The notes under the pieces were generated by a model. It made no database searches. It was not told the DNA's origin and saw only the letters and a list, made by a program, of their open reading frames with translations. A program made the translations under genes and the position numbers. This document shows positions 4,884 through 63,697 of a stretch of DNA of 64,000 nt, piece by piece. Each line of letters starts with the position of its first letter. Position 1 is the stretch's first letter. Source of the DNA: Pseudovirgaria hyperparasitica (lineage: Eukaryota); NCBI GenBank assembly GCA_010093815.1, contig ML996575.1, one strand, 5' to 3'.

Positions 4884-5297
4884 GATAGATGTTATGCAAT
4901 CTGCAGATATGTATATTTGCTGTGGACGGCAATCAAGCGTTGATAGTGATTTTGAACAGGGCATGTCACATTGTTCAGTCGTCCGGCTGCTCAGTGTATC
5001 GCTCATACAGGGATTAGGATAACAAGGACATGTGGCGTAAGCTGCGGGGGACCTAGCACAATCTTCGTGACTCGTGTCATCACTTGTGAGTAATATGACA
5101 GAGTTTGCGTGAATCTTCCCATCATCTATAGATGCCAGGTCAGAAGAGTTGGATGAAGCTCAGATGTTTGACAAGATGACAAGAGCTATCGGTCTTAAGC
5201 AGATCCGTGAACACTTTAGCTGGTCTAATATGCATATTCTCTGCATGTAATGAGTATGCTTCCTGCTCCGACTGCGAAGATAATGAATGCATTGCAG

Positions 5298-7173
5298 CTA
5301 CCTAGCCACGCACATAAGACGTACGGCGTCAGCGTTCTTCATCCTCAATAGCATCTCCATGTCCACATCGTTGATGGTTCTTCTGAGTCTCTTCAGGGTG
5401 TCCAATGCAATCTCGCCATCAGCGGCTCTGGGCTCGAGTCTGTGGTCTCGGAAGAGATGTGCCATCACTGCAACAAATTCGACTTCGGCAAACTTCTTAC
5501 CAGGGCAGTCCTGTGGTCCATCAGACCAGGGGAAAAATGTGTTCCTTGCTGGTGTGTGAAACTTTTGACCTTCCGTAGAAGCCTCTATCCAACGCGAGGG
5601 TTTCCATAGTAATGGATCAGACCAGCTGCTGGAATTAGTGTGGCAAGCTAAAAGACTCATGGTAGTTGTTGTATGTGGAGGTATAATTATGTGTTTCCCG
5701 CGGACATTGAGGGACTGTGATCTATCATCAGTACCCTTAGGTAGTGCCATAATAGGCGGATATAACCGTAGCGTCTCGTACTATTGAGATATTTAGTTTT
5801 AGATATTCAAGAGATTCACAAGTCAAGACATACGAGTATTGCTTTGCATCGTAGAAGCTGTGGGAAAAACTTCTTATAGCTCCCGAGTTCAATTGTCGAA
5901 GTAGTGAAGACTTCTCTGATCTCTTCCCATATCCAGTCTTGTACTTCGGGCTGGGTAGCTAGTAGTAACATTGCGAAGGCGAGTGTGTTTGCCGTTGTAT
6001 CGTGCCCAGCGAAATTAATGACAAAGATATTACCAAATATTTCATCAACTGAGAGTCCTCTCGGGAGTCTCCCAGCTGGGTCTTCAGCTCGATCATTGTT
6101 ACTTTGATTTGCATGATGCGCATGTATAAGCGATGTCATGAGCCCACCCGAACCGGACTTATTAAGCTCGTGTGCTCTCAATTCTTCGTGAAGCATCTCA
6201 TTCATGTACTTCTTGAATAGACTGCCTGCCTGGCCAATGCGAGCCAATCTCCTAGGCATCAAAGGAAACATTAACACCTGGTAAGGTAGAAGCATAAGTA
6301 ATATGACGTTGTCCAAAATAGTCTGTAAAGCGTCTCTATATGTTCCTGTTCCGACAACGGAATCGTCCGCTGAGCCGATGAACCTATAAGTCTTACGAAA
6401 GCCAGTCGCGGCAAGTATATTCAGCGATAGCGATCGAGTGTCCCGTTGAATGCTGGGAATACCTGTCCGCTCAGTGCTTGGTCTTGTCCAGGACTTCAAC
6501 ATGCCCTGAGATTGACGCAGAGATTCGTCCCATACGAAGCTCATAATACTCTCATTAAAGGGTGCGGCAAGGGCTTTCCTGTGGCGAGGCCAGTTTTCTA
6601 CATCTGCTGTCGATATGCAAGGGCCGAAGACTTCTAATATCTCTGTTGAACGTCAGCAAAAGTTATGAAACGTTACTACAGTGCCAAAACACAATTCTGA
6701 CCCGAACCAAGTACAGGAGACTCCTCGAGGTACCACTAGACTCATGTCTTGTTACAGTATGTGGAGATAATTCTATGCTTACTGTAGCCTTCAATCGGTC
6801 TTACGAAGTCGCGCCGGTGAGCAAAAATGTGACCAATAGCCTCTGGATCTGATATATGAACATCGATTCTGACTGGAGACACCAGTGCCCAGATCGGACC
6901 CAATCTATCGTGATCTGAAGATTTCTCGTGAAAGTGCCATCCTCGACGAAGGTGTCGAATCGATGCTGGGTACGATGTCCAGTCGAACGGCAAGCTGTCC
7001 AAAACTGACCAGATGAGGTGTCCGAAAACCTGCCAGAGTATATTGTGGGAATCTATAGGTAGTCGAACGCAGGGAATGCCCATCCTGGACGCCACGCGCA
7101 TGTTTATCTCGAGACATGCCAGCGTCCATGAGCCGTACGCGATCAGCAAACCAAGGACGACTTGGAAGAACAT
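5298..7173 (-). CDS. Cytochrome P450
   Basis: N-terminal membrane anchor, WPRHRK (WxxxR), I-helix AGHDTT, ETLR (ExxR), KPSRW, heme loop FFPWSDGPQDCPG; three exons joined by GT-AG introns. Confidence 0.93.
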
Positions 7174-7515
7174 GTCCGTGTGCTACCAACGTCGAGCGAC
7201 CTCTATAAGTTTACTTAGAGGTGTAACACCGAAGATAGATGTCTTGTAGGGCCCTGGGATACTCCTTATGTAAAAGCTCGCATTAGAACTTAGGTCTGTT
7301 GGTTGCGAGATCAGACGCGCTGAAACATTTGAGTATTAATTAAGTTTGGCCCCGAACCAACACAGACCTAGGGGATGTGTCGTCTCACCACTAGTCTTAA
7401 CCCGCTCTAGCGTAAATCCCACTCTGCTTAAGAGCGTTAAATTACCTCTTACTTAGACTACAACTACTGTCTGTTATCTACATCGATGTGGCTTGTTTTA
7501 TGCGTGACCCCCTGA

Positions 7516-8675
7516 TCATTCTTTGCTCATCCAGGCCCCATGCGGCTTGTATGGGAACTCTTCATGCATGTGTCTCGCAATCTGCTCTCGTGTTGTCACC
7601 CAGACATCTTCTTTCTCCGAAATATACATCATGAAGTTTCGCAAAGCCTCGCAGCGCCCGGGCTTGCCAGTAATCCTGGTATGTAGGGGAATGGTCATCA
7701 TCTTTCCAGAGCTCGCACCCTCACGGTAGAGCATGTCAAACGTATTCTTCAGATATTTCTCGTAAGTCTCGGCAACAGAGCTACCGAATCCAGGTGCCAT
7801 GTGGAACTTCCCATCGTTGCAATCATAGTTGTATGGTACGAGGAGCATTCCCTGTCTTTGATCCTCTGGCAATTCAGCTTCCCAAGGGAGGTCAATCCAG
7901 TATGGTACGTCATCCTGTCATGTTGGTCACATGGCATTCAGCTACGGACATCGCGTCTAATGACTTACGTTGTATACTTCTGAAGAGTAAAGAAACTCAG
8001 CATCTAGTTCTTTCCAGACTTCTGGAAACAACGACGGGGTGTTGGGTGTACCACGTCCAAAGTACGCACCCGTGGGCATCCTACCTGTACCCAGTCAGCA
8101 GATGGCGGTAGGATCTCACGGAAGTAGTAGTTTACCGGTCACCTCTTTCAGTGTCGTGAGCGTCTTCTTGATGTACTCTTTATCTTCCTCGAGACCATAA
8201 TCCCATATATCGAGCCATCGATAACCGTGGGCGCAGATCTCGTGACCATCTCGAACAAGTGCCTGCGCAAACTTTGGGTTCTTTTGCAAGGCTAAAGCTA
8301 CCGCAAAAGTGGTGAAATTCCAACCAAACTCCTTGAACAGACGGATAAAACGCCATGAAGCTGTGCGCGATCCATATTCAAAGTCCTGCTCCGCATTTAG
8401 ATATCTGGCATTCTTGCGGAAGCCTCCCGATGAGCCTTTCTCCCAAAGATATGGCTCTGATATTTCATCACCATCTAGCACGGATCTTTCACCTCCCTCT
8501 TCATAGTTCAGGACGAATGATACCGCGATCCTAGCACCGTTCGGCCATTTTGGATCAAAACTGTCCTCTCCGAAACCTAGGTCAAGTTAGCAATAGTAGT
8601 CAAAGCAAGCGGAATTGATAGGAACGGACCTTCAAAGTTTCTCGGTATCTGCAGCTTCTTCTCTATGTGAACCAT
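7516..8675 (-). CDS. Polysaccharide deacetylase-fold protein, PuuE/metal-independent allantoinase-like
   Basis: Spliced product contains PRNFEG, WPNGARIAVSFVLNYEEGGE, EYGSR, AHGYRW, DDVPYW, LVPYNYDCND, FDMLYREG and IPLHTRITGKPGR; four exons with canonical introns. Confidence 0.88.
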
Positions 8676-48884: not shown

Positions 48885-49826
48885 CTACTGCATCTTGTGG
48901 CCTGTTCCTATCACATGCCCTCCCTTAGCAAGACGACGACGCATATCCTTCATATAATATTTCATGGGGAAAAACCTGACTGCCTCTGGCAGAAATGGAT
49001 ACGTTGACCTTATGACCGCAACGCCCGCATCATACAGCAATCTTCTCCCTCTTGACTCCCTCTTGAAGCCATATGGCTCGCGCAGACTAGGAGGAAGCCA
49101 TTCCGCCGTTATTACTCGCAACAATGGCATGTTCACACGCACCCAGAGCGGATAATGTTTGTTGTACAGTAGATCATTCTTGACATTGACAGCGTCTTCT
49201 GTAACCCTGAGCTTGCCAATCATGTCGTTCCAGTAGCTCCAGAATTCCGCTCGAGTCTTCGGCCACATCGTAGGGGGCACACGCAGCGAGCAGGCTAAGA
49301 CAGAATAGTCTGTGTATGTTTGTTCCAGGAAGGCTTCATCCAACTTGCCAAAGATCTTCTCGTGGAGGTCGGTGCCGGTCGCGTACAGTGTTGCGGCTAC
49401 CCACATTTGCAGCTCCTGGTCGTCGGCGGAATAGCCGTCCCCGCGAACTTCGGCGTGCACACTGTGCACCATGTTGATGATTGCTTTCTTTTCCTCGGGA
49501 GTGCCGTACGCCATACAGTAAACGAACGTCATGGTTGTGCGTAGGCGGTCTTCGACGCGATAGGCAAAATTGGAATTCCGATTGACTCCAGCGCCAACCC
49601 CTGGACTGGCGACTTGGAGGAGAATGGCAACTGCACCACCAGCAAGGAGGATACCTTCTTGGACGATCTTCTGCATACCCTCTGGATTGAATTCTGGAGT
49701 GAGGAAGGTAGGGTGAAAGTTTGGTGTGTCGATGCCATATTCGTGTTTGCTTGAAGCACTTTTCTCACTGTCTCCGATCGATTCAGTGCGTTTCCCGAGC
49801 TGAGCACCATTGAAATGACATGCCAT
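48885..49826 (-). CDS. DUF2236 / MpaB-rubber oxygenase (Lcp)-like protein
   Basis: GGAVAILLQVASPGV, RLRTT, HSVHAEVRG, YSADDQELQMWVAATLY and WPKTRAEFWSYW motifs. Confidence 0.88.
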   Translation of the reverse strand: MACHFNGAQLGKRTESIGDSEKSASSKHEYGIDTPNFHPTFLTPEFNPEGMQKIVQEGILLAGGAVAILLQVASPGVGAGVNRNSNFAYRVEDRLRTTMTFVYCMAYGTPEEKKAIINMVHSVHAEVRGDGYSADDQELQMWVAATLYATGTDLHEKIFGKLDEAFLEQTYTDYSVLACSLRVPPTMWPKTRAEFWSYWNDMIGKLRVTEDAVNVKNDLLYNKHYPLWVRVNMPLLRVITAEWLPPSLREPYGFKRESRGRRLLYDAGVAVIRSTYPFLPEAVRFFPMKYYMKDMRRRLAKGGHVIGTGHKMQ

Positions 49827-50450
49827 TGTGTCGGATAGTTTATGTCAAAAATGCTGCAATGAAACGTAAACAAAGTGGTCAGATGAGGAGATTAGGTATA
49901 AGAGCACTCTCTACCACACAATATCTTTCTTTATAGTTGAGGAAAGGTGAAAATATCTCATCTGTCTCCCTAGAGCGGGAACACTAACATCCGAATTCTT
50001 GTACACGGCTGCCTCGGCATACGAATCGTACACTCAACTGTAATAGGATTGTTCTTGATAACCCCTCTTCGTGCCATCCTGGCAAGTCTGACCAATTTTG
50101 GGTGATTTTGTGAGGGTGTAGTTATCCCTGTGGGATGAGCTGATCCCTTAACCAGATACCTTGCCCACCGAGGTACCCCACAATACCCCATTCATATGCA
50201 AAGTCAATAGAGTCCTCTCCATGGGTAATGGAGTCAGGGTAATCTAGGATGCACATCTAGCTCTTAGTAAAGTTAGGGATGTATTTATCGCCAAAATTCG
50301 GCTGGAACAACAAGATTGATAATCGGGACATTCTAGAAATGAGGCTTCGACTCCTGTGCAGTTACATTTCCGCCTGGCTGCAGGGCCTCTACGACAACTT
50401 TCTGTACGTCTACTGCTAGAGAGTCAAGAAAGCCAGCAGAGTTCTTGGCG

Positions 50451-51905
50451 ATGGGTAGAAACGACTATATCGGCGCAGGCCAGTTTGCGACGCCAGGTAA
50501 AGGGAAGGCATCACAGCATGACGGGATCGAAAAGGACTCATCAAGCAGCGCACAAATTATTGGAGATGCCGGTAACGTATCTCAAGTGAAAGCAATATCA
50601 AGACCTACCAAGACTCAAGTGATCAAGAAGCATATTGGTAGATTCTGGGTATGTTACGGCATCGGTGGCATAGTTCTGCTCGCAATTGGTCTGCCAATCC
50701 TGTAGGTAGTCATACAGTACCAAAGGATCCCCAATAGATCATCTGGCTAATGTTGCAAACAGCTTCCTGGTCATCGTCCCCAAGATTGCGCAAAGGTTAG
50801 TCGACGATGCAGATCTCCCCATATACAGCGTCACCATCCGCAACCCAAAGGCCAACTCCGTGGTGATAACTCTTGCTACATCGCTCAAGATTCCAAAAGG
50901 CCTCACTGTCCACCTAGATCCACTCACTCTGCAACTGTATCGACCGGAAGAGCCAACGTTCATTCCATTCGTCGAGGTATCACTGCCAGGCTACAAACTC
51001 AGAGGCACGACAAACATCACTCTTGAGAACCAACTTGTGACCATTGGTGACATCGACCAGTTCACAAAGTTCCTCGGCAATGCAGTTGCAAACCAGAAAT
51101 TTGTCATTGCAGCTCGAGGGAAGGCAAGAGCGCACTTAGGTGCGCTACATGCAGATGTGACGTTGGATAAGAAGGTCACACTCGACGGTAGCTTCTCATC
51201 TCTTCAGGACTATTGCTTCAACGGGAATCTAATCCTTTGTTAGGGCTAGACAATCTGAAAGGCTTCTCGATTGACTCTGCAACAGCCGTATTTCCCCCTG
51301 AAGCAGACGGTACGAACTTGCGTGCGAGACTCACCATACCGAACAGATCAACGGTTTCATTCGATCTGGTGCCAATCCCCTCTAGTTTTGGTCGTGATGA
51401 TGATTCAACTGACAAATATGACCAGGGCAACGAAACACTCAATATCAACGGCCCAAACGGCCTCATACTGGGCAACGCAACCGTCCTAGATGTATACGTC
51501 CAGCCTGGAAACAACACGTTCGAAGCAACAGGCGTGCTCGACCTAGCCACACTTGTTGGTAATCTCCAGACCTTGATCACATACTGGGCCCCCAGCCTTG
51601 CGAATGGCAATATCAAGCTTGCCGCAAGTGGCAATGCGACTATCTTCAACGGTGAACACATCAAGTACTATGAAGATATATTGAACGGACTTGAGCTTGA
51701 AGGTGAGGTGCCAGTGATCAGCTTACTAGCGAACAGTCTTGGGAATCTACTTGGAGGTGGAATGGATGGAATTAAGAATCTCACTGACTATCTGGGTCTC
51801 AATGTGACCGAAATATTGGGCGAGTTTGACTCAAATTTGAATACATCAACGACGAGTGTACGGAGTAGGGCTGACCCAGTGATGAGAACCGTTGATATGG
51901 GCTGA
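50451..51905 (+). CDS. DUF3712 single-pass membrane protein
   Basis: KKHIGRFW followed by one TM helix, VPKIAQRLVDDA, beta-rich luminal domain with GLDNLKGF, IPNRS, LGN and VQPGNN; many N-glycosylation sequons; three introns. Confidence 0.85.
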
Positions 51906-52249: not shown

Positions 52250-52379
52250 TGCACAGGAACCACTACCACTACACCTAAAGAAAACTATACTCGAATGACC
52301 TCCAAAAGATGAGTGAAATCGTCAAAAAGCCGCTCAAATTGTCCAACATCTCTTTCCCTCTCTCTCAACCATTAAAACC

Positions 52380-52847
52380 ATGCCGCACCCGCCCGCAGCC
52401 ACCACCATCACCACCACGGTGCAAGACGCATTTCAAAAGCCAAAGAAATCAGTCACATTTAGCAGCAACCAGGGTGCCAGCGAAAGTATTTCACTCGAAA
52501 CCTTTACGATAGAAGACGTACTCGCGCACGACAAGGCGGATGATATATGGGTCGTCATCGACGGTGAGGTGTTCGACTTGACGTCGTTTGTGGACGAGCA
52601 TCCAGGTGGACGAAAAGGTTGGTAATATAAAGGAGAGGGGGTGCTAGGGGGCTTCTTGTAGTGATGTGCTGATGCACAGTGTGCAGTTCTTCTCCCAGTT
52701 GCGGGCAAGGACGCAACGAAGCAGTTTCGGAAACATCATCGAGATGCAATCCTAATTCGGTATCGGCCAAGATTCAAGATCGGTGTAGTGGAACCTGAGG
52801 AGAAAAAGCTGAGATCGAGGTTTTCATTCTGGAGAAGAAGTCATTAG
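52380..52847 (+). CDS. Cytochrome b5-like heme-binding protein
   Basis: IWVVIDGEVFDLTSFVDEHPGG, intron at about 52618-52687, then AGKDATKQFRKHH; both heme-ligand His residues present. Confidence 0.9.
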
Positions 52848-53485: not shown

Positions 53486-53967
53486 TGTTGGTGGGTGAGG
53501 GGTGGTGAATGAGGAGTCGTGGTTTTAAGTGGTGTTGAGGGTTTGAAATTGGGTTGTGTTGTTTTGGTTGTGCGTGGAGATGGAGTGCAAGGTGAGTAGA
53601 AGAAGTGCAAGATGAGTGGATGAAGAGCAAGATGAAGATTGTGAATTGAGTGGGAGGTTTAAGCAGTATTTATATGAGGATATGTGTTGTGGTGGTGGTA
53701 GACTAGTTTTTTTTTTCTTTGCAAAGTGGTTTCCGCGTGCTGCCGCTGTTTGGAACTTGCGGCCGTGATGCTTTGAGGATCGTGATGGACATTGGGAGAT
53801 CCATAGCTCTATCCCTTTTAGTTGTCCAGTTCCATGGAACGCGTCCGTATAGCCCGTCTTAGTCATATGCTCACTTACACGGATGGCAGGCATAAAAATC
53901 CCTAGACATTAAACATACGAAATTTAATGATTTACTCTGCTAAAATGCGAATCTCAAGATCATTACC

Positions 53968-56900
53968 TCAGTACCAAGGTTTGTAGCCACCGAAAAGATT
54001 ATCCAGCCTAGCCTCTCTGTCCCAGATCTTCACGCCATCGCTCTTTCTCCGGAAATACATGATACGATGCTGTGGAATGAACTCCTCGTCGGTCTGTTCG
54101 TCTTTCCAGCGATCAAGTGCAATCTCCTTGGCCCCGGTGAAGCGGTCAAGATATCCCACAATGAAGTCAGTGCTGTCAAGACTAGGATCCCAGCGGATGC
54201 GACTTATGACATCCGCTGCGGGACGAAGCCTCTTTCCCTTTACGAGAGGGCTTGATGTTGTCGGCCTACTTGTTGATCGGCTAGTGGGCTTGACTTTGGA
54301 CATTGTCGTGAGCTCTAGTCTCTCGAACTCATCAATGGGCAGGTCTTCTTCTTCTTCCTCGTCGAATTCTGAGAGATCAGCTTCGAAGATGTCGCTTCCC
54401 CAGGCCCTGTTGTCGACACGCAAGGCGCCTAGATCGGTATGTTTAACGTGCGAGACATCGACCCAGGCGATGTTGACATTGAAATATTGGTTGTTCTCCC
54501 GGATGTTGACTGCAAATTTGTCCAACATGTCTGTCAGTTTGTTCGCTACTACACGCTTGTCTTCGGTCGACTGGTTTGTTGCCCTATGCTCTTGGGTTTT
54601 AGTAAGCCCAACAAGATAGCAGCCTTGGAACTCTTTCGCGGCGGTAGATTCGATAGTACTCGAATCACAACTAGACTGGTCGCGTGTAAACCGAGCGGGC
54701 CATATTCTGCCGTGAATCTCGGGAAAGCGTCTGTTGAGGTCTACAAGGAGGGCTGGGAAGCGGCTTTCAATCCAGCCAAGGAGCTCACGGCCCTTGCTCA
54801 AGCCCCAGAACTGCACATCAATCCGGATATAACTGTTATACGAAGTCAAGAACTCTGTGACTGCATCTCTCCCATCGTCATGAAGGATTCTTTCCCAATC
54901 GATACCTGACTGCGCTTTGAGTTGAGTAATAATGATGTGATCTGCCCTCTGCAACTCTTGTTCTAATGTACGGACAGCGGGGATCGTTGCTTGACGTGCG
55001 ATATTCGTGTTGGGGGCGTTGAATCCGGTGATGACCATGGCCTCGCCAAAGTGTCGTGTATGCGGACGCCGGCCTTGAGTCTGCTGTATATCTGGATCTT
55101 CTACTGCATGCTTCTTCCAATCGAATGTAGCATAGTACCTGAAGAAGGCGCATACGATGTCTGCGGCAGTAAAAGTATCAACCTTATCATGACTCTGTCT
55201 GTAAAGGAGCTTGATGATACGATTCAGCAACATGGAGATGTGTAGACCTCCCAGAAAACCAAACCGCGCTGCATAGAGTCCCCGACCTACTGCCCAGATC
55301 ACGATGTAGCGGTAGGCAAGCTGGAACGCGGGAAAATTTGGAATCGTTTCTTGGAGGGCAGCCATGTCACGGACGGCTTTGAGCTTCGATAGTGCTTGAT
55401 GTGACAAAGAGAAGATTGGGTCGGAACTTGAAAGTGATAGCGGAGTTGGCCAGGTCTCCGCAATCCGTGTGGCGCAACAGTATTGAACATCAGCTCTCAC
55501 GTCCTGAACCTCGATCTCTAGCATAGTCCCAGTATGAGCTCCCACTTTTCGAAGGATCCGAATGCCTTGTTCGGATGACGCCCGGAGGCGTTGTATGGCA
55601 AGTGTGAAGAACGTCTTCGAGCTGATGGAGCCGATGCATAGACAGTCAATATCAGAGGCCGTGTTCCAGACATTCAAACCATAGGATCCAACTGGAACTA
55701 CGACCATTGAAACTCTATTCTCAGCATTTGAGATCTGCGAGAGACAAGTCCTAAGAATCTCAAAAATCTGCTTCCGCCGTGTGACTTCGTCGCTGGTGGG
55801 ATTCAAGACGTTATTAGCGATAAATTTTAGCAGACTTTGCGCATTGATACCAGATGCGTAGTTGACTAAACTTAGAGACGCTGCCGTGTCTAGTTCGAGG
55901 TGCCTGCTAGATACCACGCTGAATGTTGCTCGGACTCCCCAATGATCTGATCCACAGGTAGACTCTCTGCTTTCAACCTGTTCAGGAATGCCAAACATAT
56001 TGAATCGGACAGGCTGGAGGACATCCTTGCCTCTGACCAGAATCCTGTCATAACGTTGAGGTCGATGATGAGATCCATGTCCCACTATCTGCGCCGCCAA
56101 TGGGTTTCTCAATGGATCAAAAGTAGCACCCTGTTCTCCGTCAGGACATCCCTCTTCGGCCATCGTGTTCTCTTCCGATCCCGTAACCTCCCATGAGTCG
56201 ATGAAGCCAGCATCGGAAATTGTAGATTCTATCGAGTTCAATGTCCTCACAGTCTCCATTGTGATAGAGTGCGAATTCACAGCGTCGACGACCATCTGTT
56301 TCGAAGTGTTGATATTGAAGTCTCCAGCGATGATCCATGGTGAGCTGGGATACTTGGCAGACAAGTGGCGTGTCAGCGTACGAATCTGGCTTTGCTTGGC
56401 TGCCACAGATCCATCAGTCAGACCGCAAGTCAAATGGACCCCTGCAATGACAAGAGGGTAAGACTTTCCATCGTCGCCCTCGACACCAATATGAGGGAGA
56501 CGTATCAGTACAGCACCCTTGTGTCTGCGCTCAAAGGGAACAAATTCCCAAATGAAACTCCGGCGTGACAGAATGACGACATTCCTTAAACTGAGGAGAG
56601 GACCGACGTCAACCTGATCTGACGGGGCGTGCGTAGTGTAGGGATACTGTTGACGGATATCATCGTTGGAAAGGAGGTACGTCAGAAAATCGTCTGAGAC
56701 CTCTTGAAGCAAGAGTACATCGGCAGCGGCACGACTTGAGCGTATCGTATCCAGCAGGATGGCAAATCGTTCTCGAGGAGGTGGGAACAATGAGTCGATC
56801 AGGACATTATAGCTCGACACTGTGATACTGGTCGTGGTGTTCTGGCGCGTCCTGATTTGAGGCACAACGTCGAGAGCCTTCCATAGACATGCAGAAGGAT

Positions 56901-57600
56901 CAAATCGGTAAGTTGCTTCTTGAGATACTCGACTGACCGACACGATATCAGATGATGATTGTACAGTCGAACACCCCTGGTTGAGCTCTGGAACAGATTG
57001 TATTCCAGTATGGGACTTGATCAAATCATCGCAAGACCTGCCTCTGGCCGAGAGTCGGACTGTTCTCCAGACTTTCATCTTTCTGTCTTCGTCCCTAATC
57101 ATGATCGCGATTTCATGAACGGGCCACTCGATCTTCGGTAGTAGTCCGACCTTCAGAAGTAGCGAGTCACGTAATTCGGTATTTGTCGGCCCCGCTTGAC
57201 CGACTGTAACATGTGGGATGAATGAATCATGGTTAGATTGAGAGAGTATGGAGTTGATCCTCTGTCGCAGTTGTTGTAGCCCCTCATTGTCCTCCGGCCG
57301 TAAATGAACTGTAGAGCGGTATTTGTTTGCAAAATAGCCCGCTTCTCCTAGAATTAGATGCAATGGTTCCCATGGAGCTTCGGAAAATGCAGACTCCAGG
57401 AGGGATAAAGCTGTATCGAGAAGATCTGGATGAACGAAGGGACATGCAAGAGTTATGTGAGCAGGCCAAGTAGTCCAGTTTTTGTCGTAGGCAGCTCTGA
57501 GGCGATCGATTTCAGTTGTCAGGTGCGACGGTAAGATAATTGCTAATGCCGTCTGGTGCGAATGGAAACTCAAGGACTGTGCTTTTTGTGAGACCGCCAT
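53968..57600 (-). CDS. Multidomain 2H phosphoesterase + EEP + poly(A) polymerase-like nucleotidyltransferase + MJ1316 protein
   Basis: Single 1210-aa ORF: HIT (H48) and HVT (H130); SYNVL, LQEV, GDFN, RYDR, SDH; GSYG...SDIDC, RADVQY, WA..RGLY...FGFLGG; RIRWD, VGYLDRF, IPQHRI, IWDRE. Confidence 0.92.
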   Translation of the reverse strand: MAVSQKAQSLSFHSHQTALAIILPSHLTTEIDRLRAAYDKNWTTWPAHITLACPFVHPDLLDTALSLLESAFSEAPWEPLHLILGEAGYFANKYRSTVHLRPEDNEGLQQLRQRINSILSQSNHDSFIPHVTVGQAGPTNTELRDSLLLKVGLLPKIEWPVHEIAIMIRDEDRKMKVWRTVRLSARGRSCDDLIKSHTGIQSVPELNQGCSTVQSSSDIVSVSRVSQEATYRFDPSACLWKALDVVPQIRTRQNTTTSITVSSYNVLIDSLFPPPRERFAILLDTIRSSRAAADVLLLQEVSDDFLTYLLSNDDIRQQYPYTTHAPSDQVDVGPLLSLRNVVILSRRSFIWEFVPFERRHKGAVLIRLPHIGVEGDDGKSYPLVIAGVHLTCGLTDGSVAAKQSQIRTLTRHLSAKYPSSPWIIAGDFNINTSKQMVVDAVNSHSITMETVRTLNSIESTISDAGFIDSWEVTGSEENTMAEEGCPDGEQGATFDPLRNPLAAQIVGHGSHHRPQRYDRILVRGKDVLQPVRFNMFGIPEQVESRESTCGSDHWGVRATFSVVSSRHLELDTAASLSLVNYASGINAQSLLKFIANNVLNPTSDEVTRRKQIFEILRTCLSQISNAENRVSMVVVPVGSYGLNVWNTASDIDCLCIGSISSKTFFTLAIQRLRASSEQGIRILRKVGAHTGTMLEIEVQDVRADVQYCCATRIAETWPTPLSLSSSDPIFSLSHQALSKLKAVRDMAALQETIPNFPAFQLAYRYIVIWAVGRGLYAARFGFLGGLHISMLLNRIIKLLYRQSHDKVDTFTAADIVCAFFRYYATFDWKKHAVEDPDIQQTQGRRPHTRHFGEAMVITGFNAPNTNIARQATIPAVRTLEQELQRADHIIITQLKAQSGIDWERILHDDGRDAVTEFLTSYNSYIRIDVQFWGLSKGRELLGWIESRFPALLVDLNRRFPEIHGRIWPARFTRDQSSCDSSTIESTAAKEFQGCYLVGLTKTQEHRATNQSTEDKRVVANKLTDMLDKFAVNIRENNQYFNVNIAWVDVSHVKHTDLGALRVDNRAWGSDIFEADLSEFDEEEEEDLPIDEFERLELTTMSKVKPTSRSTSRPTTSSPLVKGKRLRPAADVISRIRWDPSLDSTDFIVGYLDRFTGAKEIALDRWKDEQTDEEFIPQHRIMYFRRKSDGVKIWDREARLDNLFGGYKPWY

Positions 57601-58199
57601 AACAACAGTTCCTCCGGATCTATCGTGGTAAGTAACGTGATAAGAAGTAGTGTAAAGAAAAGCAAATTGAACCAGAAGGTCTTATGCTAGAAAATGAAAT
57701 TGAGCCACTAATGAGATGAATGGTATCGCATACGGATGCAGACCATGGTGGACAAGCCTACTTAATGTCGCCAACTGATATTCACAACAATGACGAATGC
57801 GCCTCTCGAGAAGCCTGTTTCTGGTGACTCCCATGCCGTCGTTCCAGAGCGTTTGAAGCGCTGCTTTTTGACTCATTTAGGTGCACTTTATTTGCATGAT
57901 TACACGGACTTGAAAGATAATTTCGTTGCCGGAAACCATATACAGTGTGACTCAAGCACGGGAACCAGCCAAAGGATGGCTGTGGCTGTGCATCTCGCGA
58001 CTACCACGACCGGATGACTCATCGTGGCTCATTATGAATCATACAAATAGCAAGCCTCAATAATGCCACTAGACAGGAGCGTAGTGTTTGAGATGGAATT
58101 GCGATGGGAGATGACTGATCCGTCGAATGTGAAGAGTTTGCCTACAGCGGATGATATGATGATACTTGCTGCCTGAGGCAAACACGCTAGCCCTTCTCG

Positions 58200-58680
58200 T
58201 CTTAACTCTTACCACTTTCTAGTACTCATACACACACATTCTCTCTTCTCTATCACTACTTAAGGCCTATATCTCGGGTTGAGAGTCTATGCTATATAGT
58301 ATATAGATATATAAAAGTAAGTTATACATTAACTCTCTAAGATTCTCTAGCTTTGAAGTTATCGAAAGTGGAGACGAGTTCAAATCCAAGTTTAAACAGA
58401 CGATAAGTTTGTGAACATATTCTCTAGGTACTAATTACTTGACTTGCTATAGTTCATCTCTTTAAGAAAGTCTTACTTCTGTTATTAAGATACTCTCTAT
58501 AAGCGTCAACAGGAAATATAAGTTTTTATACGTATACTCTTACGTATACTTATCCCACGATAAGAAGCTCTTATATATACATCTATATAGCGTAGCCGAA
58601 AAACGAGAATTGCACACTTATACGCAAGTTATAGGAATAACATGTTCTATCTAAGTAATGGGTTGTCAGGCCTAACGATG
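58200..58680. other. AT-rich, TpA-rich segment (possible RIP-degraded repeat relic)
   Basis: Visibly low GC, with abundant TA dinucleotides and no ORF of 60 aa or more; judged by eye only. Confidence 0.4.
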
Positions 58681-58686
58681 CTACTT

Positions 58687-58760
58687 TCGTCTTCTCGTCT
58701 TCTCGTCTTCTCGTCTTCTCGTCTTCTCGTCTTCTCGTCTTCTCGTCTTCTCGTCTTCTC
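58687..58760. repeat. 8-bp tandem repeat (TCGTCTTC)9
   Basis: Nine consecutive perfect units. Confidence 0.95.
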
Positions 58761-58980
58761 TTCTTACTAGATTCCTAGATTTGTAGTACAGCGTTGATTA
58801 ACTCAGATTAGACGAGTAGAGTACGGGACATCAAGTCAAGAGATCCTGACGGTGTTATATAGGCCAAAAGTGCCGATACATGCATAAGTACTTATATTGA
58901 GAGCAGTCCTCCAAAGCGAAGAGACGAGAAAGGAAACAGACACAAGACAACCATTCAACACAACCCCCCCCCCCCCCCCT

Positions 58981-60021
58981 TCAAAGCCACCTCTCAAAGA
59001 ACCTCACCGCCTGCACAAAAACCTCCTCCTTCGCCACCCTCTGCACCCGATCACTCACATTCGCACGCACCCCAAACCCATGACTCGTCCCGCCAAACAA
59101 CCCCACCACATACGGCACCCCCGTCCCGCCCAACAACCCCTCCACCACCCCCCTCCTCTCCGGCCCAACCATCCCATCCACCTCCGCAAACGCCACACCC
59201 ACAGGACCCCCAACAGCCTGGATCTCGCCGTCCTCAAGCAGGCTTGGGTGCGCGGCATAGGCGACCTGTGCGCTGGGCGTGTGTGTGGGCGAAAGGAAGC
59301 GCAGGGCGTAGCGGCCGCCGAAGCAGTAGCCTGTGATTGCGATGCGGGAGGTGTGGAAGTGGGTGTGCAGGGTGTTCAGGGCGGTGGTGACGAGGGGGTC
59401 GGTGGTGTTGGGGGCGTGCTGCGCGAGGAAGGCGCTGGTGTTGAAGGCTGGTGTGCCGGGGGATGTGAGGTCGACTGGGGCCGGAGTGCCGTTGAAGAGG
59501 TCGGGGGCGAGGGTGAGGTAGCCGGCGCGGGCGAAGGAGTCGGCGAGGCTGTTTGCGGTGTGTGTTAGGGTGGAGTCGTGGTATGCTGCTTTGAAAGCAA
59601 GAGGAGATATCTAGATCTGAAGGTGGGGGATGGAGATGGAGATGGAATAAGATGAGCTCGGGAGACAGGATAAGAATGAGAGGAAGAGCGACAGAAAAAG
59701 GGACAACCCACAGTCTATTCTGCAACAGCTGAATCCCAAACACATCCGTCAGATACAACACCGCAACCCCATCCCTCGCCGTCCCCTTCTCCGGCTCCGA
59801 AACATACATATTCACTATCACACTCGTCAGCATCATCTCTCTCTCTCTCCACACAACATTATCCCCTCCACAAACGCACCTCCATCAAACACCCTCTCAT
59901 ACCCCACCGACGACCCATTATGCGCCACAAGCGAACCATCAACACAAGTCCGACGCGCCACCACCACGCCCGCAAACGCAACCGCCACAAGCGCAAACAA
60001 ACGTGTGCAAAAAAGCATCAT
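58981..60021 (-). CDS. Dienelactone hydrolase family protein with signal peptide
   Basis: Spliced over introns 59815-59879 and 59549-59711: LYLTDVFG, LADSFARAGY..LAPDLF, GYCFGG nucleophile elbow, AHPS, EVD and HGFGVR. Confidence 0.9.
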
Positions 60022-60948
60022 AGCAGCAGCCCGACAATCTCACACACATATACTTTAAAAAAAAAAGGCCAAAAGCGCGCGGGTGATAATGCGACGTTGA
60101 AATAGACACGCAATGACCCCGAGGCGGGTATTAGGCCAAACTTTATATACGCTTTCTGCCAACTCTGGTGGCGTTGCGGGCGCTGTAGTGTGTGGTGATT
60201 GAAGGGTGCCTAATCAGGCTAAATCCGTGGTATAAACCCCCCGCGGGCTGGGCCAGGACGGGCCGGTGGTGTAACCTACCTTACGTGCGGGTGGACCGGG
60301 GGGGACGCCACGCGCCTTCCTGATGCGGGAGCAGCCGTTGACGTGCAGTGTGAGGGGTTGGTGGAATGGTGCATGGGTATGAGATGGTTTTACTGGCGGG
60401 TTGGGCTGTGGTGCCGTTATCTCGTTCCTGGGTGTGTAATATAATTATGTTGTGTTACACAGGGTAATCGTGCCCTTGTCCTGCGCTGGAATGATGCCCC
60501 GAGGTGGGAGGCCCCACTTATGTACCTCCTCTACGCAGATTCAAACTCAACTCACTCCACAGCCTTCGACTCCACCAGCTTCTTGCCAAACAATTCAAGT
60601 CTCAAATCTTCACGATTTCTTTTCGTCAAGATGGACTTCAGTTACCTCAATCCGTTCTTATCCTTTGTGTTTGATTTCCGTCTTGGAGCCTCTTTCACGT
60701 TCTTCGGGCAAAATTGGTTTCGATCTCTTTTTTAAGAGGATCTACCATCGATTTCGTTAACAAAGGAATCGAAAGTAGTCTTGACCGAAGATAGAACATG
60801 CTGCAAGAATTAAACCAAGAGAAAAAAAATGGAATAGAGGTAAATGAATAAAAAGTTGTGAAGGTTTGATGTTTGAAGTGTCTTTGAAGTGATGTCATGT
60901 AGATTGTCATTATGCATTATCTAGCTGCGGCCGTCTAAGTAAGCTACC

Positions 60949-62807
60949 TCATGTCCTGAAGACATCCCCATTATCATTAATAAATTTGATGGCATTCGCC
61001 CTGTAATCGTCTGTAATTATATCCGTCTGACTCTCTCTCAGATGCATCGTCTTGCGCCCGCTCTCGTCGAAGAGCGGCCATTTGGGCAGATCACTTAGCC
61101 CGTGCTGGTTCGGATCGAGGTGATTTACGAAACTCACCAGCACACTCATCAGATGTAGCGAATTGCGACTCACTGTCGGCGGTAGAAGGCCGAACCAATA
61201 AAGCACAACGTCGGAGACGTGGAAACTGCCGAGCACGGGAATGTTGGCGAGTTTGAGGGTGTTGAGCAGTGTGCCCACGATGGGCAGGCCGTCGAGACCT
61301 GCACTCGGAACGACGGTCTCGAGCAGATAGTTGTAGACCTTATTCTTGGCGTGTGGGAGCAATTGCCGGCGCTCAGACTGGAAGGTGTAGTCGCCGATGA
61401 GTGCGGCGATGCGTTTGTATTGAGGGCTAATGGCATTCAAAGGACCGGTGTCAAAGGGAGAGCCGGCAGATGGGTCGTTGGGGTATTGAGCGACGAGTTG
61501 TTCGATCTTCTCCACTGGTGCGTTTGGGAAGAAGATTGTTTGGAGGTAGTCGATGAGATCGTCAGTGGTAGTGATATTGAGGTTGTTGACGAGAGAGAAG
61601 AGGGTGCCTTCGTCTTTCATGTCGCCGATTAGGATTGGCACATCTGCGACCTGCCCCTTGGCAATGAGCCGGTCAGGCGAGTCGGATAGATAGTGGTTAT
61701 CTGCGCGCAGATTCCAGGCAACGTTCGTGGAATGGTAGCCAAGGAACTGCGGGCTCTGGTTGATGTACTCGAAAAAGGACTCTGTAGGCTTGCTGCGGAG
61801 ACAGGCGAGTTTATCAGTTGCGTCGCGGCAGCCTACAGATTCGAGCATGTAGTTGAATGTGCCTTGCTGGCGCGTGTAGTCGTCGACTTTGAGGCCGGCG
61901 CCCGAGGCCATAATGACGCCCCGGTAGAGACCCTCGGTATCGCCGCCATTGGCTGTGAGATGGCCGGCGATAGACATGGAGCCTGCACTTTCGCCGAACA
62001 ATGTGACCCGGTTTGGGTCTCCGCCAAACTGAGAGATGTATTTCTTGACCCAGTGCATTGCGACTCGTTGGTCACCAAAACCGAGTGATAGAGCGTCTTG
62101 GTCAGCAAGTTCCTTGGACTGCGAAAAGCCGAATGCGTTGAGACGGTAGTTGATGGATGCAAACACCACGGGCTGATTCATGTTGATGGAATGCTGGACG
62201 ATATTGGCGCCTTGGTAGATGACGCCCTGTATGGCCTCAGTTTCTGTGAAGCCTAATGCAGCAGACGAGCCGACTGCAAAGCCGCCTCCGTGAATCCACA
62301 AGACCTGAACGAGCAAAATTAACGATAGTAGGTACAGCTGCATGCTTGATCACTTACCACGGGCAGTTTACTATCCTTGGTCGCATTGAGCGGAGCCTGC
62401 ACATTGATTGAGAGGCAGTCCTCCGCTGTTCCCAATACCGGTCTCAATAGGGGACCCTCCAGTAAAGTGGCGAGTCCACCAAGTAGGTCCCCAATCGGAC
62501 TGGGAGAAAGAATGGAAAGGACGGACTGCTGAATACATGCCGGGCCATAATCAGAAGCGTCTTGAACGCCCTCGAGTTTGGTGGTGAGAAGCTTAGAGCG
62601 GCGAAACCTTTCAGGACGAGCATAGGGCATTCCGAGGTAGTTCTTGGTGCCCGTTCTCAGATCTTTCGCACCCCGAAAACTGGCATAGTCAAGGTTGACA
62701 GCATCGGCAGGACCGCCGATGAAGAGTTTCGCAGCGCTGATGATGGCCGAGTTGGCAGCGCCGGCCAACAACAGGAGGCTCACAAAGGCCTTTGTTGATA
62801 TCAGCAT
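60949..62807 (-). CDS. Secreted carboxylesterase/lipase type B
   Basis: Signal peptide, LGMPYA, EDCLSINV, intron 62305-62357, WIHGGGF, NYRL, FGGDP, GESAG (Ser), DEGTLF (Glu) and GSFH (His). Confidence 0.94.
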
Positions 62808-63697
62808 CTTTGAGTCAAGCGGGCGCTCCCGAGCAGCAGGAATCGACGGCGGATGTCATTCTTGGTCATGGGTAGTCTGATGGAATAAATAGCTGGAGGT
62901 CGCGGTTGAGATGTTGTTGAGAAGGGCCGAGTTGGACTAGCACTAGCACAGTTGCGCGATCAAGGCGCCGATTAGTAGGGGCCGGCTATGGTCTGGACAG
63001 CTATCCGATGGTTGTTGTCTCGCGTGGCGCAGAACACGAGGTGAGAATTAGATATACGTGTACAATAGACTGCATGCGTCTTTCTTCTTAGGTCGATTAT
63101 GAGATGGCAGATAAGACGAGACGAGAGGTCACTGTCACCATCACGACGCTTCTTGTTGGTCAGCCCTGTCAGCCTTCAACGCCATGTCGGCCGTGCCAAG
63201 AGGGTGCTATAGGAAGATGAGCTATGATACGACCGGATAAGGGACGAAGTGGACTATAGTACATACATGGCCGTATACACGTATTGCTAAGTGCGTGTTG
63301 GTGGCTGGAGGATGGTGGAGGATGGCGGAGGATGTATGATGTATGAGAATAAGAAAGGACGAGAGTTGATGGAGAAGAGGCAGGTGAGGAACAAGGAATT
63401 GGCGGCGGGGGAAATGAGAGTGAGTGACCAGATACTGAGGTCAGTATAGCGATACACTTGACCGTGGCGGTCACGTCATGGCATAATCGTGCAGAAGGAG
63501 GCATATTTGGGCCTTGCGATTCAGGCAAGTATACCTATGACCTCGGCAGTATTATTAGTCGCACGCCTAAAGCTGCCCGGCTGTCCGAGAATGGAAGGGT
63601 CGATGGGAGACCTTCAGCCACTAATCGTAACCAACTGAGCCACATGCGCACGCTTGTTGCTACCTTGCTTCATAGGGCTTAAGGCTTACATGTGTCT

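What the first reader, a model, noticed from the sequence alone, without database searches (positions are those of the whole stretch)
53968..57600. Single-chain candidate RNA end-repair enzyme: 2H + EEP + poly(A) polymerase-like + MJ1316
Seen: one intronless ORF (1210 aa) in a window where most genes are spliced. It has four modules whose catalytic residues all look intact: 2H phosphoesterase (two HxT motifs, H48 and H130), EEP nuclease/phosphatase (about aa 260-555; QE, GDFN, D, SDH), pol-beta nucleotidyltransferase of the poly(A) polymerase type (GS...DID plus a third Asp in RADVQY, followed by central and RNA-binding-like regions), and a C-terminal MJ1316 domain. Established: 2H enzymes open 2',3'-cyclic phosphates, EEP domains (Angel/CCR4/TDP2 class) can remove terminal phosphates, PAP-type enzymes need a 3'-OH, and MJ1316 has been proposed computationally to recognise cyclic RNA ends. 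Inference: an ordered bind, decyclise, dephosphorylate and tail pathway for RNA cut by ribotoxins, Ire1 or tRNA endonucleases, leading to repair or decay. As far as I recall, this architecture has been noted in comparative surveys but not characterised biochemically.
Basis: partly seen in the sequence, partly recalled or inferred. Interest (0 to 1): 0.82.

Follow-up and report, generated by a model that had tools for sequence, protein, structure and literature searches.

The report
Fungal four-domain RNA-end healing-and-tailing enzyme
This is an intact fungal gene that joins four RNA-end-processing modules in one protein; it belongs to a widespread, catalogued family that has never been tested biochemically, so it is a sound candidate enzyme and not a new kind of system.

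Summary
Window 53968-57600 (minus strand) is one uninterrupted 1210-aa ORF. Pfam finds four modules above cut-off: 2H phosphoesterase, EEP, poly(A)-polymerase central domain and MJ1316. Transcript-like contigs from a second sample cover the whole ORF without a joint, while the same runs skip introns in neighbouring genes.

It is one member of a large orthologue family. Of the 120 best hits, 112 carry all four Pfam families; they are Pezizomycotina at 38-50% identity. A four-domain form also occurs in the basidiomycete Lentinula.

All four modules match the bacterial MJ1316-EEP-2H-PAP proteins module by module, but the order differs: fungi 2H-EEP-PAP-MJ1316, bacteria MJ1316-EEP-2H-PAP.

Predicted folds: the polymerase part is a complete canonical PAP (Z 32.3). 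The EEP is nearest TDP2 (Z 24.4), with ANGEL2/CCR4 at about 20. The 2H is LigT/YjcG-like.

The bind, decyclise, dephosphorylate and tail pathway is plausible but remains inference. No biochemical study turned up. A separate canonical Pap1 could not be checked because no genome is held. Verdict: new member of a known, predicted kind.

The parts
53968..57600 (-). Complete intronless coding sequence, 1210 aa plus stop (P0001)
   Evidence: N-terminus colinear with orthologues; covered without a joint by contigs of runs X3 and X4
57049..57558 (-). 2H phosphoesterase domain, aa 15-184, with motifs H48-I-T50 and H130-V-T132-V-G-Q135
   Evidence: Pfam PF13563 E 3e-27. Model aligned to YjcG 2d4g_B at Z 18.8 (165 residues, rmsd 2.4), P. 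horikoshii LigT 1vgj at Z 15.8 and ThpR 4qak at Z 14.8. H48, H130 and T132 invariant in 56/56.
55906..56844 (-). EEP domain with a short N-terminal beta element, aa 253-565; N265, E300, D427, N429, D518, D552, H553
   Evidence: Pfam PF03372, 37.2 bits against 24.5. All seven residues invariant in 56/56. Foldseek best match TDP2 4gyz_E, E 8e-14. VIA: TDP2 4fpv_A Z 24.4, nSMase 8j2f_B 23.6, Nocturnin 20.9, CNOT6L 20.6, PDE12 20.6, ANGEL2 20.3.
54418..55830 (-). Canonical-type poly(A) polymerase module, aa 591-1061: nucleotidyltransferase, central and C-terminal RNA-binding-like domains; G638-S639, D650, D652, D704
   Evidence: PAP_central PF04928. PDB profile search: PAP gamma 4lt6 E 2.2e-39 over chain 34-475; bovine PAP over chain 25-496. 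VIA: bovine PAP 1q78_A Z 32.3 with 418 residues aligned, yeast PAP 2o1p_A Z 29.8 with 439 aligned, next GLD-2 at 23.4.
54238..54345 (-). Acidic then basic low-confidence linker, aa 1086-1121
   Evidence: pLDDT below 50 at residues 496-531 of the C-half model; poorly conserved in alignment A1
54016..54225 (-). MJ1316 domain, aa 1126-1195 (R1134, W1137, D1138, I-P-Q-H1178-R1179-I)
   Evidence: Pfam PF04457 E 2.2e-20. 46% identical over 81 aa to the N-terminal MJ1316 of the Calothrix protein P0122, E 3e-13.
57601..58110 (-). Upstream stretch covered by the same transcript-like contig; it holds 10 upstream ATGs. Whether it belongs to this mRNA is not shown.

Best explanation
The gene encodes a member of a conserved fungal family (Pezizomycotina, and some Agaricomycetes). 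The family puts four RNA-end modules in one polypeptide, in the order 2H phosphoesterase, EEP phosphoesterase, canonical-type poly(A) polymerase, MJ1316.

Most likely it works on broken RNA 3' ends that carry a 2',3'-cyclic phosphate. The steps below are inferred, not shown. MJ1316 docks on the end. The LigT/YjcG-like 2H domain opens the cyclic phosphate to a monoester. The EEP domain removes that phosphate, or another terminal block, to leave a 3'-OH. The PAP module, which keeps its own RNA-binding domain, adds untemplated nucleotides, probably A.

What the tail is for, marking fragments for decay or protecting and restoring them, is open.

Shown here: the modules, their intact catalytic motifs, the folds, conservation, transcription of the locus, and homology of all four modules to the bacterial MJ1316-EEP-2H-PAP proteins.
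For: Four Pfam families above cut-off. Catalytic residues of 2H and EEP are invariant in 56/56. The PAP triad is invariant in 11/11 and at least 90% conserved in 56.

Models are confident: N half pLDDT 84.2, pTM 0.84; C half pLDDT 86.3, pTM 0.78. Fold matches: PAP Z 32.3 over 418 residues including the C-terminal domain; 2H Z 18.8 to YjcG; EEP Z 24.4 to TDP2.

Of the 120 listed orthologues, 112 keep all four Pfam families. In the motif census, 101 of 121 fungal sequences show all four motifs in the order H-E-P-M, and the other 20 show fewer motifs in the same order.

Each module matches the same module of a Calothrix plasmid protein of different order. BLASTP: EEP 3e-15, MJ1316 3e-13, 2H 1e-12, PAP 6e-8. 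They share signatures: AHINL in 2H motif 1, and G-x-TFDP-x-RN-x-LAA ... R-x-DRIL in the EEP. The four-module association therefore persists in both fungi and bacteria although the order differs.

Chemistry of relatives: ThpR gives a 2'-PO4 end (PMC4201822 abstract). ANGEL2, an EEP, removes 2',3'>P through 2'-P (PMC13247085 passages). PMC6514570 (passage) describes MJ1316 as a recogniser of RNA 2'-3' cyclic ends that is fused to RNA-repair domains across eukaryotes.

The locus is covered end to end by transcript-like contigs.
Against: No activity of any member was found in print, so every catalytic step is inferred.

The EEP is structurally nearer TDP2 and neutral sphingomyelinase than the cyclic phosphatase ANGEL2, by about 4 Z units. 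A phosphatase role is therefore not the only reading.

The 2H motif 2 is HxTxGQ. The corresponding Arg is essential in ThpR. Motif 1 is H-x-N in 110 of 121 fungal members. The window protein alone has H-I-T, and it has Cys53 where 110 of 121 have Tyr. The effect of these changes is unknown.

Nucleotide specificity of the PAP module was not examined. Neighbouring genes are unrelated: an mpaB-like oxygenase, DUF3712, cytochrome b5 and a carboxylesterase. The Calothrix neighbours give no ligase context either.

In the PAP-MJ1316 search, all 10 hits of about 600-690 aa that were scanned lack 2H and EEP, so the four modules are not always together.
Confidence: 0.6

Rival explanations
1. End-adduct or 5'-end processing enzyme. 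The EEP acts like TDP2, as a phosphodiesterase that removes a bulky group or a protein (tyrosyl) link from a polynucleotide end, and not as a phosphomonoesterase. The other modules then clean and extend the RNA.
For: TDP2 chains fill the top of the Foldseek list (best 4gyz_E, E 8.2e-14, TM on target 0.76). TDP2 also leads the Foldseek-independent search (4fpv_A Z 24.4, 240 aligned, rmsd 2.9; ANGEL2 20.3).
Against: TDP2 is tied within 1 Z with neutral sphingomyelinase (23.6), and identity is only 18-21%. Fold rank among EEP enzymes does not fix the substrate. The conserved partnership with a cyclic phosphodiesterase fold and MJ1316 points to 3' phosphate ends.
Confidence: 0.12
2. Poly(A)-tail remodelling enzyme. 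The EEP is a CCR4-type deadenylase and the PAP a cytoplasmic polyadenylase, and together they set tail length. 2H and MJ1316 are accessory.
For: Nocturnin, CNOT6L and PDE12 align at Z 20.6-20.9, and the PAP module is complete.
Against: The deadenylase clade ranks below TDP2, sphingomyelinase and several uncharacterised bacterial EEPs. The same four modules travel together in cyanobacteria and other bacteria, where regulated long poly(A) tails are not expected (general knowledge). The 2H histidines are invariant, which argues for a catalytic and not an accessory role.
Confidence: 0.08
3. Oligonucleotide second-messenger module. The PAP/OAS-like transferase makes 2'-5'- or 3'-5'-linked oligoadenylates, and the 2H and EEP domains (compare AKAP7/ns2 and PDE12) degrade them.
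For: OAS1 (Z 20.9), CD-NTases (Z about 21), PDE12 (Z 20.6) and AKAP18 (Z 13.8) all appear in the fold lists.
Against: Canonical PAP stands about 9 Z units above OAS and the CD-NTases, and it aligns through the C-terminal RNA-binding domain, which those enzymes lack. The 2H is nearer LigT/YjcG than AKAP18.
Confidence: 0.05
4. It is simply the organism's canonical mRNA poly(A) polymerase with extra domains.
For: UniRef names orthologues 'polynucleotide adenylyltransferase'. The fold is a canonical PAP. No genome was available to look for a second PAP.
Against: Identity to the bovine and yeast PAPs is only 21-22% in the structural alignment. The word-indexed search among shorter proteins found no canonical PAP sharing 5-residue words (15 hits, all pieces of this family). 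The family's named hits are all fungal (Pezizomycotina, plus Lentinula), and its relatives are bacterial repair-type fusions. That model fungi carry a separate Pap1 is recalled knowledge and was not tested here.
Confidence: 0.02
5. In this species the 2H module is weakened or re-specialised. The protein acts with only some of its modules, as in the shorter PAP-MJ1316 forms of other fungi.
For: The window protein is the only one of 121 with H-I-T in place of H-x-N, and with Cys53 in place of the Tyr seen in 110 of 121. The Cys53 position corresponds to the base-stacking Phe of ThpR's HxTxxF motif (PMC4201822 abstract). Two-domain PAP-MJ1316 proteins exist in Talaromyces, Candelina, Hypoxylon and Ascobolus.
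Against: Both histidines and T132 are intact. HxT is the canonical motif of the superfamily. The sequence is identical in contigs from a second sample (no other letters in X3 or X4), so it is not an assembly error. The domain model is confident, with pLDDT mostly above 90.
Confidence: 0.08

Closest known systems
Fungal 2H-EEP-PAP-MJ1316 orthologues, for example Diplodia seriata SLS55_009925 (P0002), Macrophomina phaseolina MS6 (P0004), Blastomyces dermatitidis BDCG_04864 (P0018), Parastagonospora nodorum (P0095)
   Same: Same four modules in the same order. Full-length colinear alignment at 38-50% identity. Catalytic residues conserved.
   Different: The best hit is only 50% identical (53% over the C half), so the window's lineage is not closely represented. 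The window protein has H-I-T and Cys53 where the family has H-x-N and Tyr.
Bacterial MJ1316-EEP-2H-PAP proteins, named 'poly(A) polymerase', 'DUF504 domain-containing protein', 'RNA repair domain-containing protein' or 'RNA 2',3'-cyclic phosphodiesterase'; for example Calothrix brevissima NIES-22 plasmid2 BAY66805.1 (P0122)
   Same: All four modules are homologous one to one (BLASTP E 3e-15 to 6e-8). They share the AHINL 2H motif and the EEP insert signature, and give the same Pfam set.
   Different: Module order is M-E-H-P in 105 of 121 bacterial sequences and H-E-P-M in 101 of 121 fungal ones; the rest show fewer motifs in the same clade-specific order. This is not a circular permutation. 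The bacterial proteins are shorter (median 1007 against 1225 aa). Also untested biochemically, as far as the searches show.
E. coli ThpR / LigT-type 2H cyclic phosphodiesterases and B. subtilis YjcG
   Same: 2H fold (YjcG Z 18.8, ThpR Z 14.8) and two His-x-Thr motifs.
   Different: ThpR's extended motifs are HxTxxF and HxTxxR with an essential Arg (PMC4201822 abstract). Here they read HxTxxC (family HxNxxY) and HxTxGQ.
TDP2, and the CCR4/Nocturnin/ANGEL2 branch of the EEP superfamily
   Same: EEP fold with the full set of metal-binding and catalytic residues. ANGEL2 shows that an EEP can turn 2',3'>P into 2',3'-OH (PMC13247085 passages).
   Different: 18-21% identity. No PDB EEP is found by sequence at E up to 0.1. 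There is a family-specific helical insert between GDFN and D518, aa 434-515. The subfamily is not resolved.
Canonical eukaryotic poly(A) polymerase (bovine PAP alpha 1q78, yeast Pap1 2o1p)
   Same: Three-domain PAP fold, the GS and DxD...D catalytic motifs, and the conserved FG(F/Y)LGG segment.
   Different: 21-22% identity. Fused to three end-processing modules. Not the Pap1 orthologue by similarity. Pfam PAP_RNA-bind is not detected by sequence in this protein.

Membership tests
2H phosphoesterase superfamily (Pfam PF13563 2_5_RNA_ligase2; LigT/ThpR-like) | Two H-x-T/S motifs on a 2H fold | tested here: met
   H48-I-T50 and H130-V-T132; Pfam 96 bits against cut-off 27; YjcG Z 18.8, LigT Z 15.8, ThpR Z 14.8
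ThpR subfamily of 2H enzymes | Extended motifs HxTxxF and HxTxxR, with a catalytically essential Arg (PMC4201822 abstract) | tested here: not met
   Motif 2 is H130-V-T-V-G-Q135, and Gln135 is invariant in 56/56. Motif 1 ends in Cys53 here and in Tyr in 110/121 family members.
2H phosphoesterase superfamily | [quoted passage not shown] | not testable with these tools
   Needs an enzyme assay
EEP superfamily (Pfam PF03372) | Profile match, the conserved N/E/D-N/D/D-H catalytic set and the four-layer fold | tested here: met
   37.2 bits against 24.5; N265, E300, D427, N429, D518, D552 and H553 invariant in 56/56; 16 of the first 17 rows of the VIA list are EEP structures, Z about 20-24
ANGEL2/CCR4-type EEP (2',3'-cyclic phosphatase or deadenylase branch) | Closest structural and sequence kinship to that branch | tested here: inconclusive
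   ANGEL2 Z 20.3, Nocturnin 20.9 and CNOT6L 20.6, against TDP2 24.4 and nSMase 23.6. No sequence-level PDB hit for the EEP part.
Canonical (PAP-type) poly(A) polymerase | GS motif, DxD plus a third Asp, PAP central domain, C-terminal RNA-binding domain | tested here: met
   G638-S639, D650, D652 and D704; PF04928 38.3 bits against 27.1; bovine PAP Z 32.3 with 418 residues aligned to chain 43-498; profile E 2.2e-39 to PAP gamma. PAP_RNA-bind (PF04926) is not detected by sequence in this protein.
Pap1 orthologue (the mRNA 3'-end polyadenylation enzyme) | High identity to Pap1 and being the genome's canonical PAP | tested here: inconclusive
   21-22% identity to the bovine and yeast PAPs. No whole genome is held, so a second PAP could not be sought. 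The 'shorter' search found none, but it is limited by its word index.
MJ1316 domain (Pfam PF04457) | Profile match above the gathering score | tested here: met
   73.5 bits against 26.3, aa 1126-1195
MJ1316 domain | Binding of RNA 2',3'-cyclic phosphate ends | not testable with these tools
   Stated as a property in PMC6514570 (passage). I saw no experimental source. Burroughs and Aravind 2016 is not held.
Four-module MJ1316/EEP/2H/PAP 'RNA repair' proteins of bacteria and giant viruses | All four modules in one chain, each homologous to its counterpart | tested here: met
   BLASTP against Calothrix P0122: four separate significant alignments. Pfam on P0122 and on the Nonomuraea ORF.
Four-module MJ1316/EEP/2H/PAP 'RNA repair' proteins of bacteria and giant viruses | Module order MJ1316-EEP-2H-PAP | tested here: not met
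   Fungal order is 2H-EEP-PAP-MJ1316 (101/121 with all four motifs). Bacterial order is MJ1316-EEP-2H-PAP (105/121).

The most novel reading that the evidence does not exclude
Filamentous fungi have a dedicated surveillance route for RNA fragments that end in a 2',3'-cyclic phosphate. Such fragments arise from ribotoxins, T1/T2-type RNases, Ire1 or tRNA endonuclease. One enzyme recognises the end, heals it and adds a tail, so the fragments go to decay or rescue instead of to Trl1 ligation. In this it would parallel CNP and ANGEL2, which compete with RTCB in animals. The same four-module toolkit occurs in a different order in fungi and in bacteria, which would mean that selection acts on having the four activities in one chain and not on their order.
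Probability: 0.3. Interest if true: 0.7.

Novelty: new member of a known kind. Interest (0 to 1): 0.48.

Why it matters
If the predicted activities are real, this would be the first single-chain eukaryotic enzyme that takes a cyclic-phosphate RNA end all the way to a tailed 3'-OH. It would also give the first function for the MJ1316 domain and for a family present in hundreds of fungal genomes, including plant and human pathogens.

It bears on how cells without RtcB dispose of or rescue RNA cut by ribotoxins and stress nucleases. The protein is compact enough to express, its active-site residues are obvious targets for mutation, and the substrates are standard, so the question can be tested directly.

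The find itself is not a surprise. The family is catalogued in Pfam and UniProt and, as I recall, in Burroughs and Aravind 2016.

Tried and rejected
- Whole-genome search for a canonical PAP1: no genome is held for this window.
- Reading Burroughs and Aravind 2016 (PMC5062991, doi 10.1093/nar/gkw722): not held. What I say of it is recalled.
- The search for related loci with the fungal alignment in bacterial and archaeal genomes: 23 pattern matches, none confirmed. The patterns were specific to fungi. The bacterial relatives were reached through a tblastn of plasmids instead (2 records).
- 'Shorter' homologue search with the PAP part: 15 hits, all pieces or partial models of this same family and no canonical PAP. 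Given the word-index limit, this is no evidence of absence.
- RNA runs: no RNA holder is listed. X3 and X4 are of unrecorded kind; I judged them transcript-like only from their intron-skipping contigs.
- Bdelloid rotifer lead. The Atlas lists a Rotifera cluster with MJ1316, 2H and EEP. PMC11258130 reports horizontally acquired 'RNA ligase' (PF13563) genes induced by a fungal pathogen (passages). In its supplement the up-regulated 'RNA ligase activity' and 'polynucleotide adenylyltransferase' gene lists do not overlap, and three of the four adenylyltransferase genes carry the GO term 'biofilm formation'. No link to this family was established. One supplementary file (file 9) was not searched.
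- Sequence search of the PDB for the EEP and MJ1316 parts: no hit at E up to 0.1 or up to 1 with the single sequence. The weak 'HomA' hit (E 0.0017) was ignored as unexplained.
- MJ1316 fold: not tested. The PAP module filled the structural list.
- Gene neighbourhood, both in the window and beside the Calothrix gene: nothing related to RNA repair.
- Atlas search of the PAP part with fusion families excluded: the nearest clusters are PAPs of about 500 aa from nematodes and plants. This is uninformative about a fungal Pap1.
- Reference 80 of PMC6514570, cited for MJ1316 end recognition, could not be located in the text.

Full report
THE OBSERVATION

The stop-to-stop frame reaches only 57681, so there is no earlier in-frame ATG. 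The N-terminus aligns residue for residue with ten orthologues that also begin 'MA...'.

Pfam finds four families above their curated cut-offs:
- 2_5_RNA_ligase2 (2H), aa 24-172, E 3e-27.
- Exo_endo_phos, aa 264-553, E 3.4e-9.
- PAP_central, aa 759-905, E 1.4e-9.
- MJ1316, aa 1126-1195, E 2.2e-20.
A sub-threshold NTP_transf_2 match lies at aa 633-662.

In an alignment of the N half with 55 orthologues, H48, H130, T132, N265, E300, D427, N429, D518, D552 and H553 are invariant. The polymerase residues are invariant in 11 of 11 sequences and at least 90% conserved in 56.

TRANSCRIPTION AND GENE MODEL

No run on record as RNA holds the stretch. Two runs of one sample, X3 and X4, whose kind is not recorded, give gene-sized contigs. 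These contigs skip five GT..AG (or, on the minus strand, CT..AC) introns in the neighbouring genes. The DNA run X1 runs straight through those same places. I therefore read X3 and X4 as transcript assemblies.

One X3 contig of 4282 nt (53829-58110) and one X4 contig of 4198 nt (53901-58098) cover the whole ORF with no joint and no differing letter. This supports an expressed, unspliced gene and confirms the sequence from a second sample. Contigs cannot show where the RNA starts or ends.

FOLDS

AlphaFold2 with 56-row alignments gave confident models. The N half has pLDDT 84.2 and pTM 0.84. The C half has pLDDT 86.3 and pTM 0.78. The only low-confidence stretches are the termini, the 2H-EEP linker (aa 192-222) and the acidic/basic linker before MJ1316 (aa 1086-1121).

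The models were compared with 48,161 representative PDB chains without Foldseek.

The C half matches bovine PAP at Z 32.3 (418 residues aligned, chain 43-498) and yeast PAP at Z 29.8 (439 aligned). The next match, GLD-2, is at 23.4 with 266 aligned. The polymerase module is therefore a complete three-domain canonical PAP, including the C-terminal RNA-binding-like domain. This agrees with the profile search of PDB sequences (PAP gamma E 2.2e-39 over chain 34-475).

The 2H domain is nearest B. subtilis YjcG (Z 18.8), then Pyrococcus LigT (15.8) and E. coli ThpR (14.8).

The EEP domain is nearest TDP2 (Z 24.4, 23.8, 23.7) and is tied with human neutral sphingomyelinase (23.6). Nocturnin, CNOT6L, PDE12, ANGEL2 and ExoIII follow at 20.2-20.9. 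Foldseek likewise puts TDP2 first (E 8e-14). The EEP subfamily is thus not resolved, but it is not specifically ANGEL/CCR4-like.

THE FAMILY

The word-indexed search returned 398 hits at E up to 0.001. The 120 listed are all full-length or nearly so. By my count of the table, 112 carry all four Pfam families. They come from Dothideomycetes, Eurotiomycetes, Sordariomycetes and Geoglossum at 38-50% identity. Their names are 'hypothetical protein', 'polynucleotide adenylyltransferase' or 'DUF455 domain-containing protein'. The nearest are Botryosphaeriales at 50%.

An exhaustive HMMER search with the C half found 2316 representatives at E up to 1e-3, 906 at up to 1e-10 and 176 at up to 1e-30. I chose 30 of the 150 listed hits, by length class, for a Pfam scan at E up to 1e-4:
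- All 10 proteins in the 600-690 aa class with a PAP-plus-MJ1316 match had only PAP and MJ1316.
- Of the 9 proteins of 820-995 aa, 3 had EEP, PAP and MJ1316, and none had 2H.
- Of the 9 proteins of 1093-1369 aa, 7 had all four families.
- The last two, both about 600 aa, matched one family each: P0399 (594 aa) MJ1316 only, P0401 (603 aa) PAP_central only.

Names recovered for ten of them place a four-domain form in the basidiomycete Lentinula. The two-domain forms are in Talaromyces, Candelina, Hypoxylon and Ascobolus. Whether the short forms are real or are split gene models was not tested.

RELATION TO THE BACTERIAL FAMILY

Earlier reports of this scan describe bacterial and giant-virus MJ1316-EEP-2H-PAP proteins. 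I checked this independently. A tblastn of plasmid records found two bacterial loci. The Calothrix brevissima plasmid gene (annotated thpR_2, 991 aa, P0122) and a Nonomuraea ORF both carry MJ1316, EEP, 2H and PAP_central in that order.

BLASTP of P0001 against P0122 gives four separate significant alignments, one per module:
- EEP: 26% over 308 aa, E 3e-15.
- MJ1316: 46% over 81 aa, E 3e-13.
- 2H: 26% over 184 aa, E 1e-12.
- PAP: 20% over 255 aa, E 6e-8.

The alignments show shared signatures. One is 'AHINL' in 2H motif 1. The other is an EEP insert that reads G-x-TFDP-x-RN-x-LAA ... R-x-DRIL.

A search with P0122 found 197 relatives. Most of the 120 listed that carry an organism name are cyanobacterial. 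They are called 'poly(A) polymerase', 'DUF504 domain-containing protein', 'RNA repair domain-containing protein' or 'RNA 2',3'-cyclic phosphodiesterase'.

A motif-position census shows that the order is fixed within each group. Among fungi, 101 of 121 read 2H-EEP-PAP-MJ1316. Among bacteria, 105 of 121 read MJ1316-EEP-2H-PAP. In both groups the rest show fewer motifs in the same order. The two orders are not circular permutations of each other. I could not root a tree, so the direction and number of transfers remain open.

PECULIARITIES OF THE 2H DOMAIN

ThpR's extended motifs are HxTxxF and HxTxxR, and the Arg is essential (PMC4201822 abstract). In this family motif 2 is HxTxGQ, with Gln135 invariant. 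Motif 1 is H-x-N-x-x-Y in 110 of 121 fungal members and H-I-N in 61 of 121 bacterial ones.

The window protein is the only one of 121 with H-I-T, and it has Cys53 in place of the Tyr. The contigs of the second sample carry the same sequence. What this does to activity is unknown.

MECHANISM

The following is shown: the four modules, their intact catalytic sets, the folds, strong conservation across Dikarya, transcription of the locus, and persistence of the four-module association in fungi and bacteria despite the changed order.

The pathway is inferred from relatives. A LigT-type 2H enzyme opens RNA>p to a 2'-phosphate. An EEP enzyme can take such ends to 2',3'-OH, as ANGEL2 does (PMC13247085 passages). 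A PAP needs a free 3'-OH (general knowledge). MJ1316 is described as recognising cyclic ends (PMC6514570 passage), which is a computational claim as far as I could see.

I therefore favour an RNA 3'-end heal-and-tail enzyme, at about 0.6 for the general function and less for the exact order of steps. The fate of the tailed RNA is open.

The main alternative concerns the EEP step, which could be TDP2-like removal of an adduct instead of a phosphate. The remaining rivals are less likely for the reasons given under each: tail remodelling, oligoadenylate signalling, being the sole mRNA PAP, or a weakened 2H in this species.

WHAT COULD NOT BE DONE

- Burroughs and Aravind 2016 could not be read. 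My statement that it noted such architectures is recalled.
- Nucleotide specificity, the MJ1316 fold and inter-module geometry were not examined.
- The window neighbours give no functional context: an mpaB-like oxygenase, DUF3712, cytochrome b5 and a carboxylesterase.

VERDICT

The gene is one of hundreds of orthologues already in public databases, so it is a new member of a known, predicted kind.

Noticed in passing
window 57601-58110 (minus strand): The transcript-like contigs extend about 510 nt upstream of the start codon. This stretch holds 10 upstream ATGs that open short ORFs of 6-64 codons. It could mean uORF control of translation, or overlap with the transcript of the divergent neighbour at 58094-58607. 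Contigs cannot tell which.
   Followed up: partly
window 58094-58607 (+), 59191-60371 (-), 50073-51625 (+): Neighbouring genes are spliced. Introns at 58317-58452, 59549-59711, 59815-59879, 50702-50762 and 51368-51424 are skipped by contigs of runs X3/X4 but not by the DNA run X1.
   Followed up: partly
window 48888-49844 (-), 50710-51905 (+), 52317-52625 (+), 60952-62855 (-): Flanking ORFs match an mpaB/rubber-oxygenase-like domain, DUF3712 (two exons), cytochrome b5 and a carboxylesterase (two exons). None is related to RNA repair.
   Followed up: yes
P0265, P0269, P0281, P0297 and other hits: Proteins of about 600-690 aa with only PAP and MJ1316 are annotated in Talaromyces atroroseus, Candelina, Hypoxylon texense and Ascobolus immersus. 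Forms of about 900-1000 aa have EEP-PAP-MJ1316 without 2H. They may be true reduced forms or split or truncated gene models; the Eremomyces entry is marked partial.
   Followed up: partly
ESM Atlas clusters; PMC11258130: A Rotifera cluster (61 members, about 1249 aa) carries MJ1316, 2H and EEP and resembles this protein (score 0.97). Bdelloid rotifers strongly induce horizontally acquired PF13563 'RNA ligase' genes on fungal attack (passages). A link between the two was not established.
   Followed up: partly
L001 (Calothrix brevissima plasmid2) 4986-7961: The bacterial four-module gene sits on a conjugative 208-kb plasmid, next to a dynamin-like GTPase gene and several hypothetical genes, with no RNA ligase nearby.
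   Followed up: partly
window 58975: A single C>T difference in one contig of DNA run X1, 31 letters from the contig's end. It is probably a contig-end artefact or a strain variant in a repeat-bordered gap (58688-58944 is not spanned by the listed contigs).
   Followed up: no
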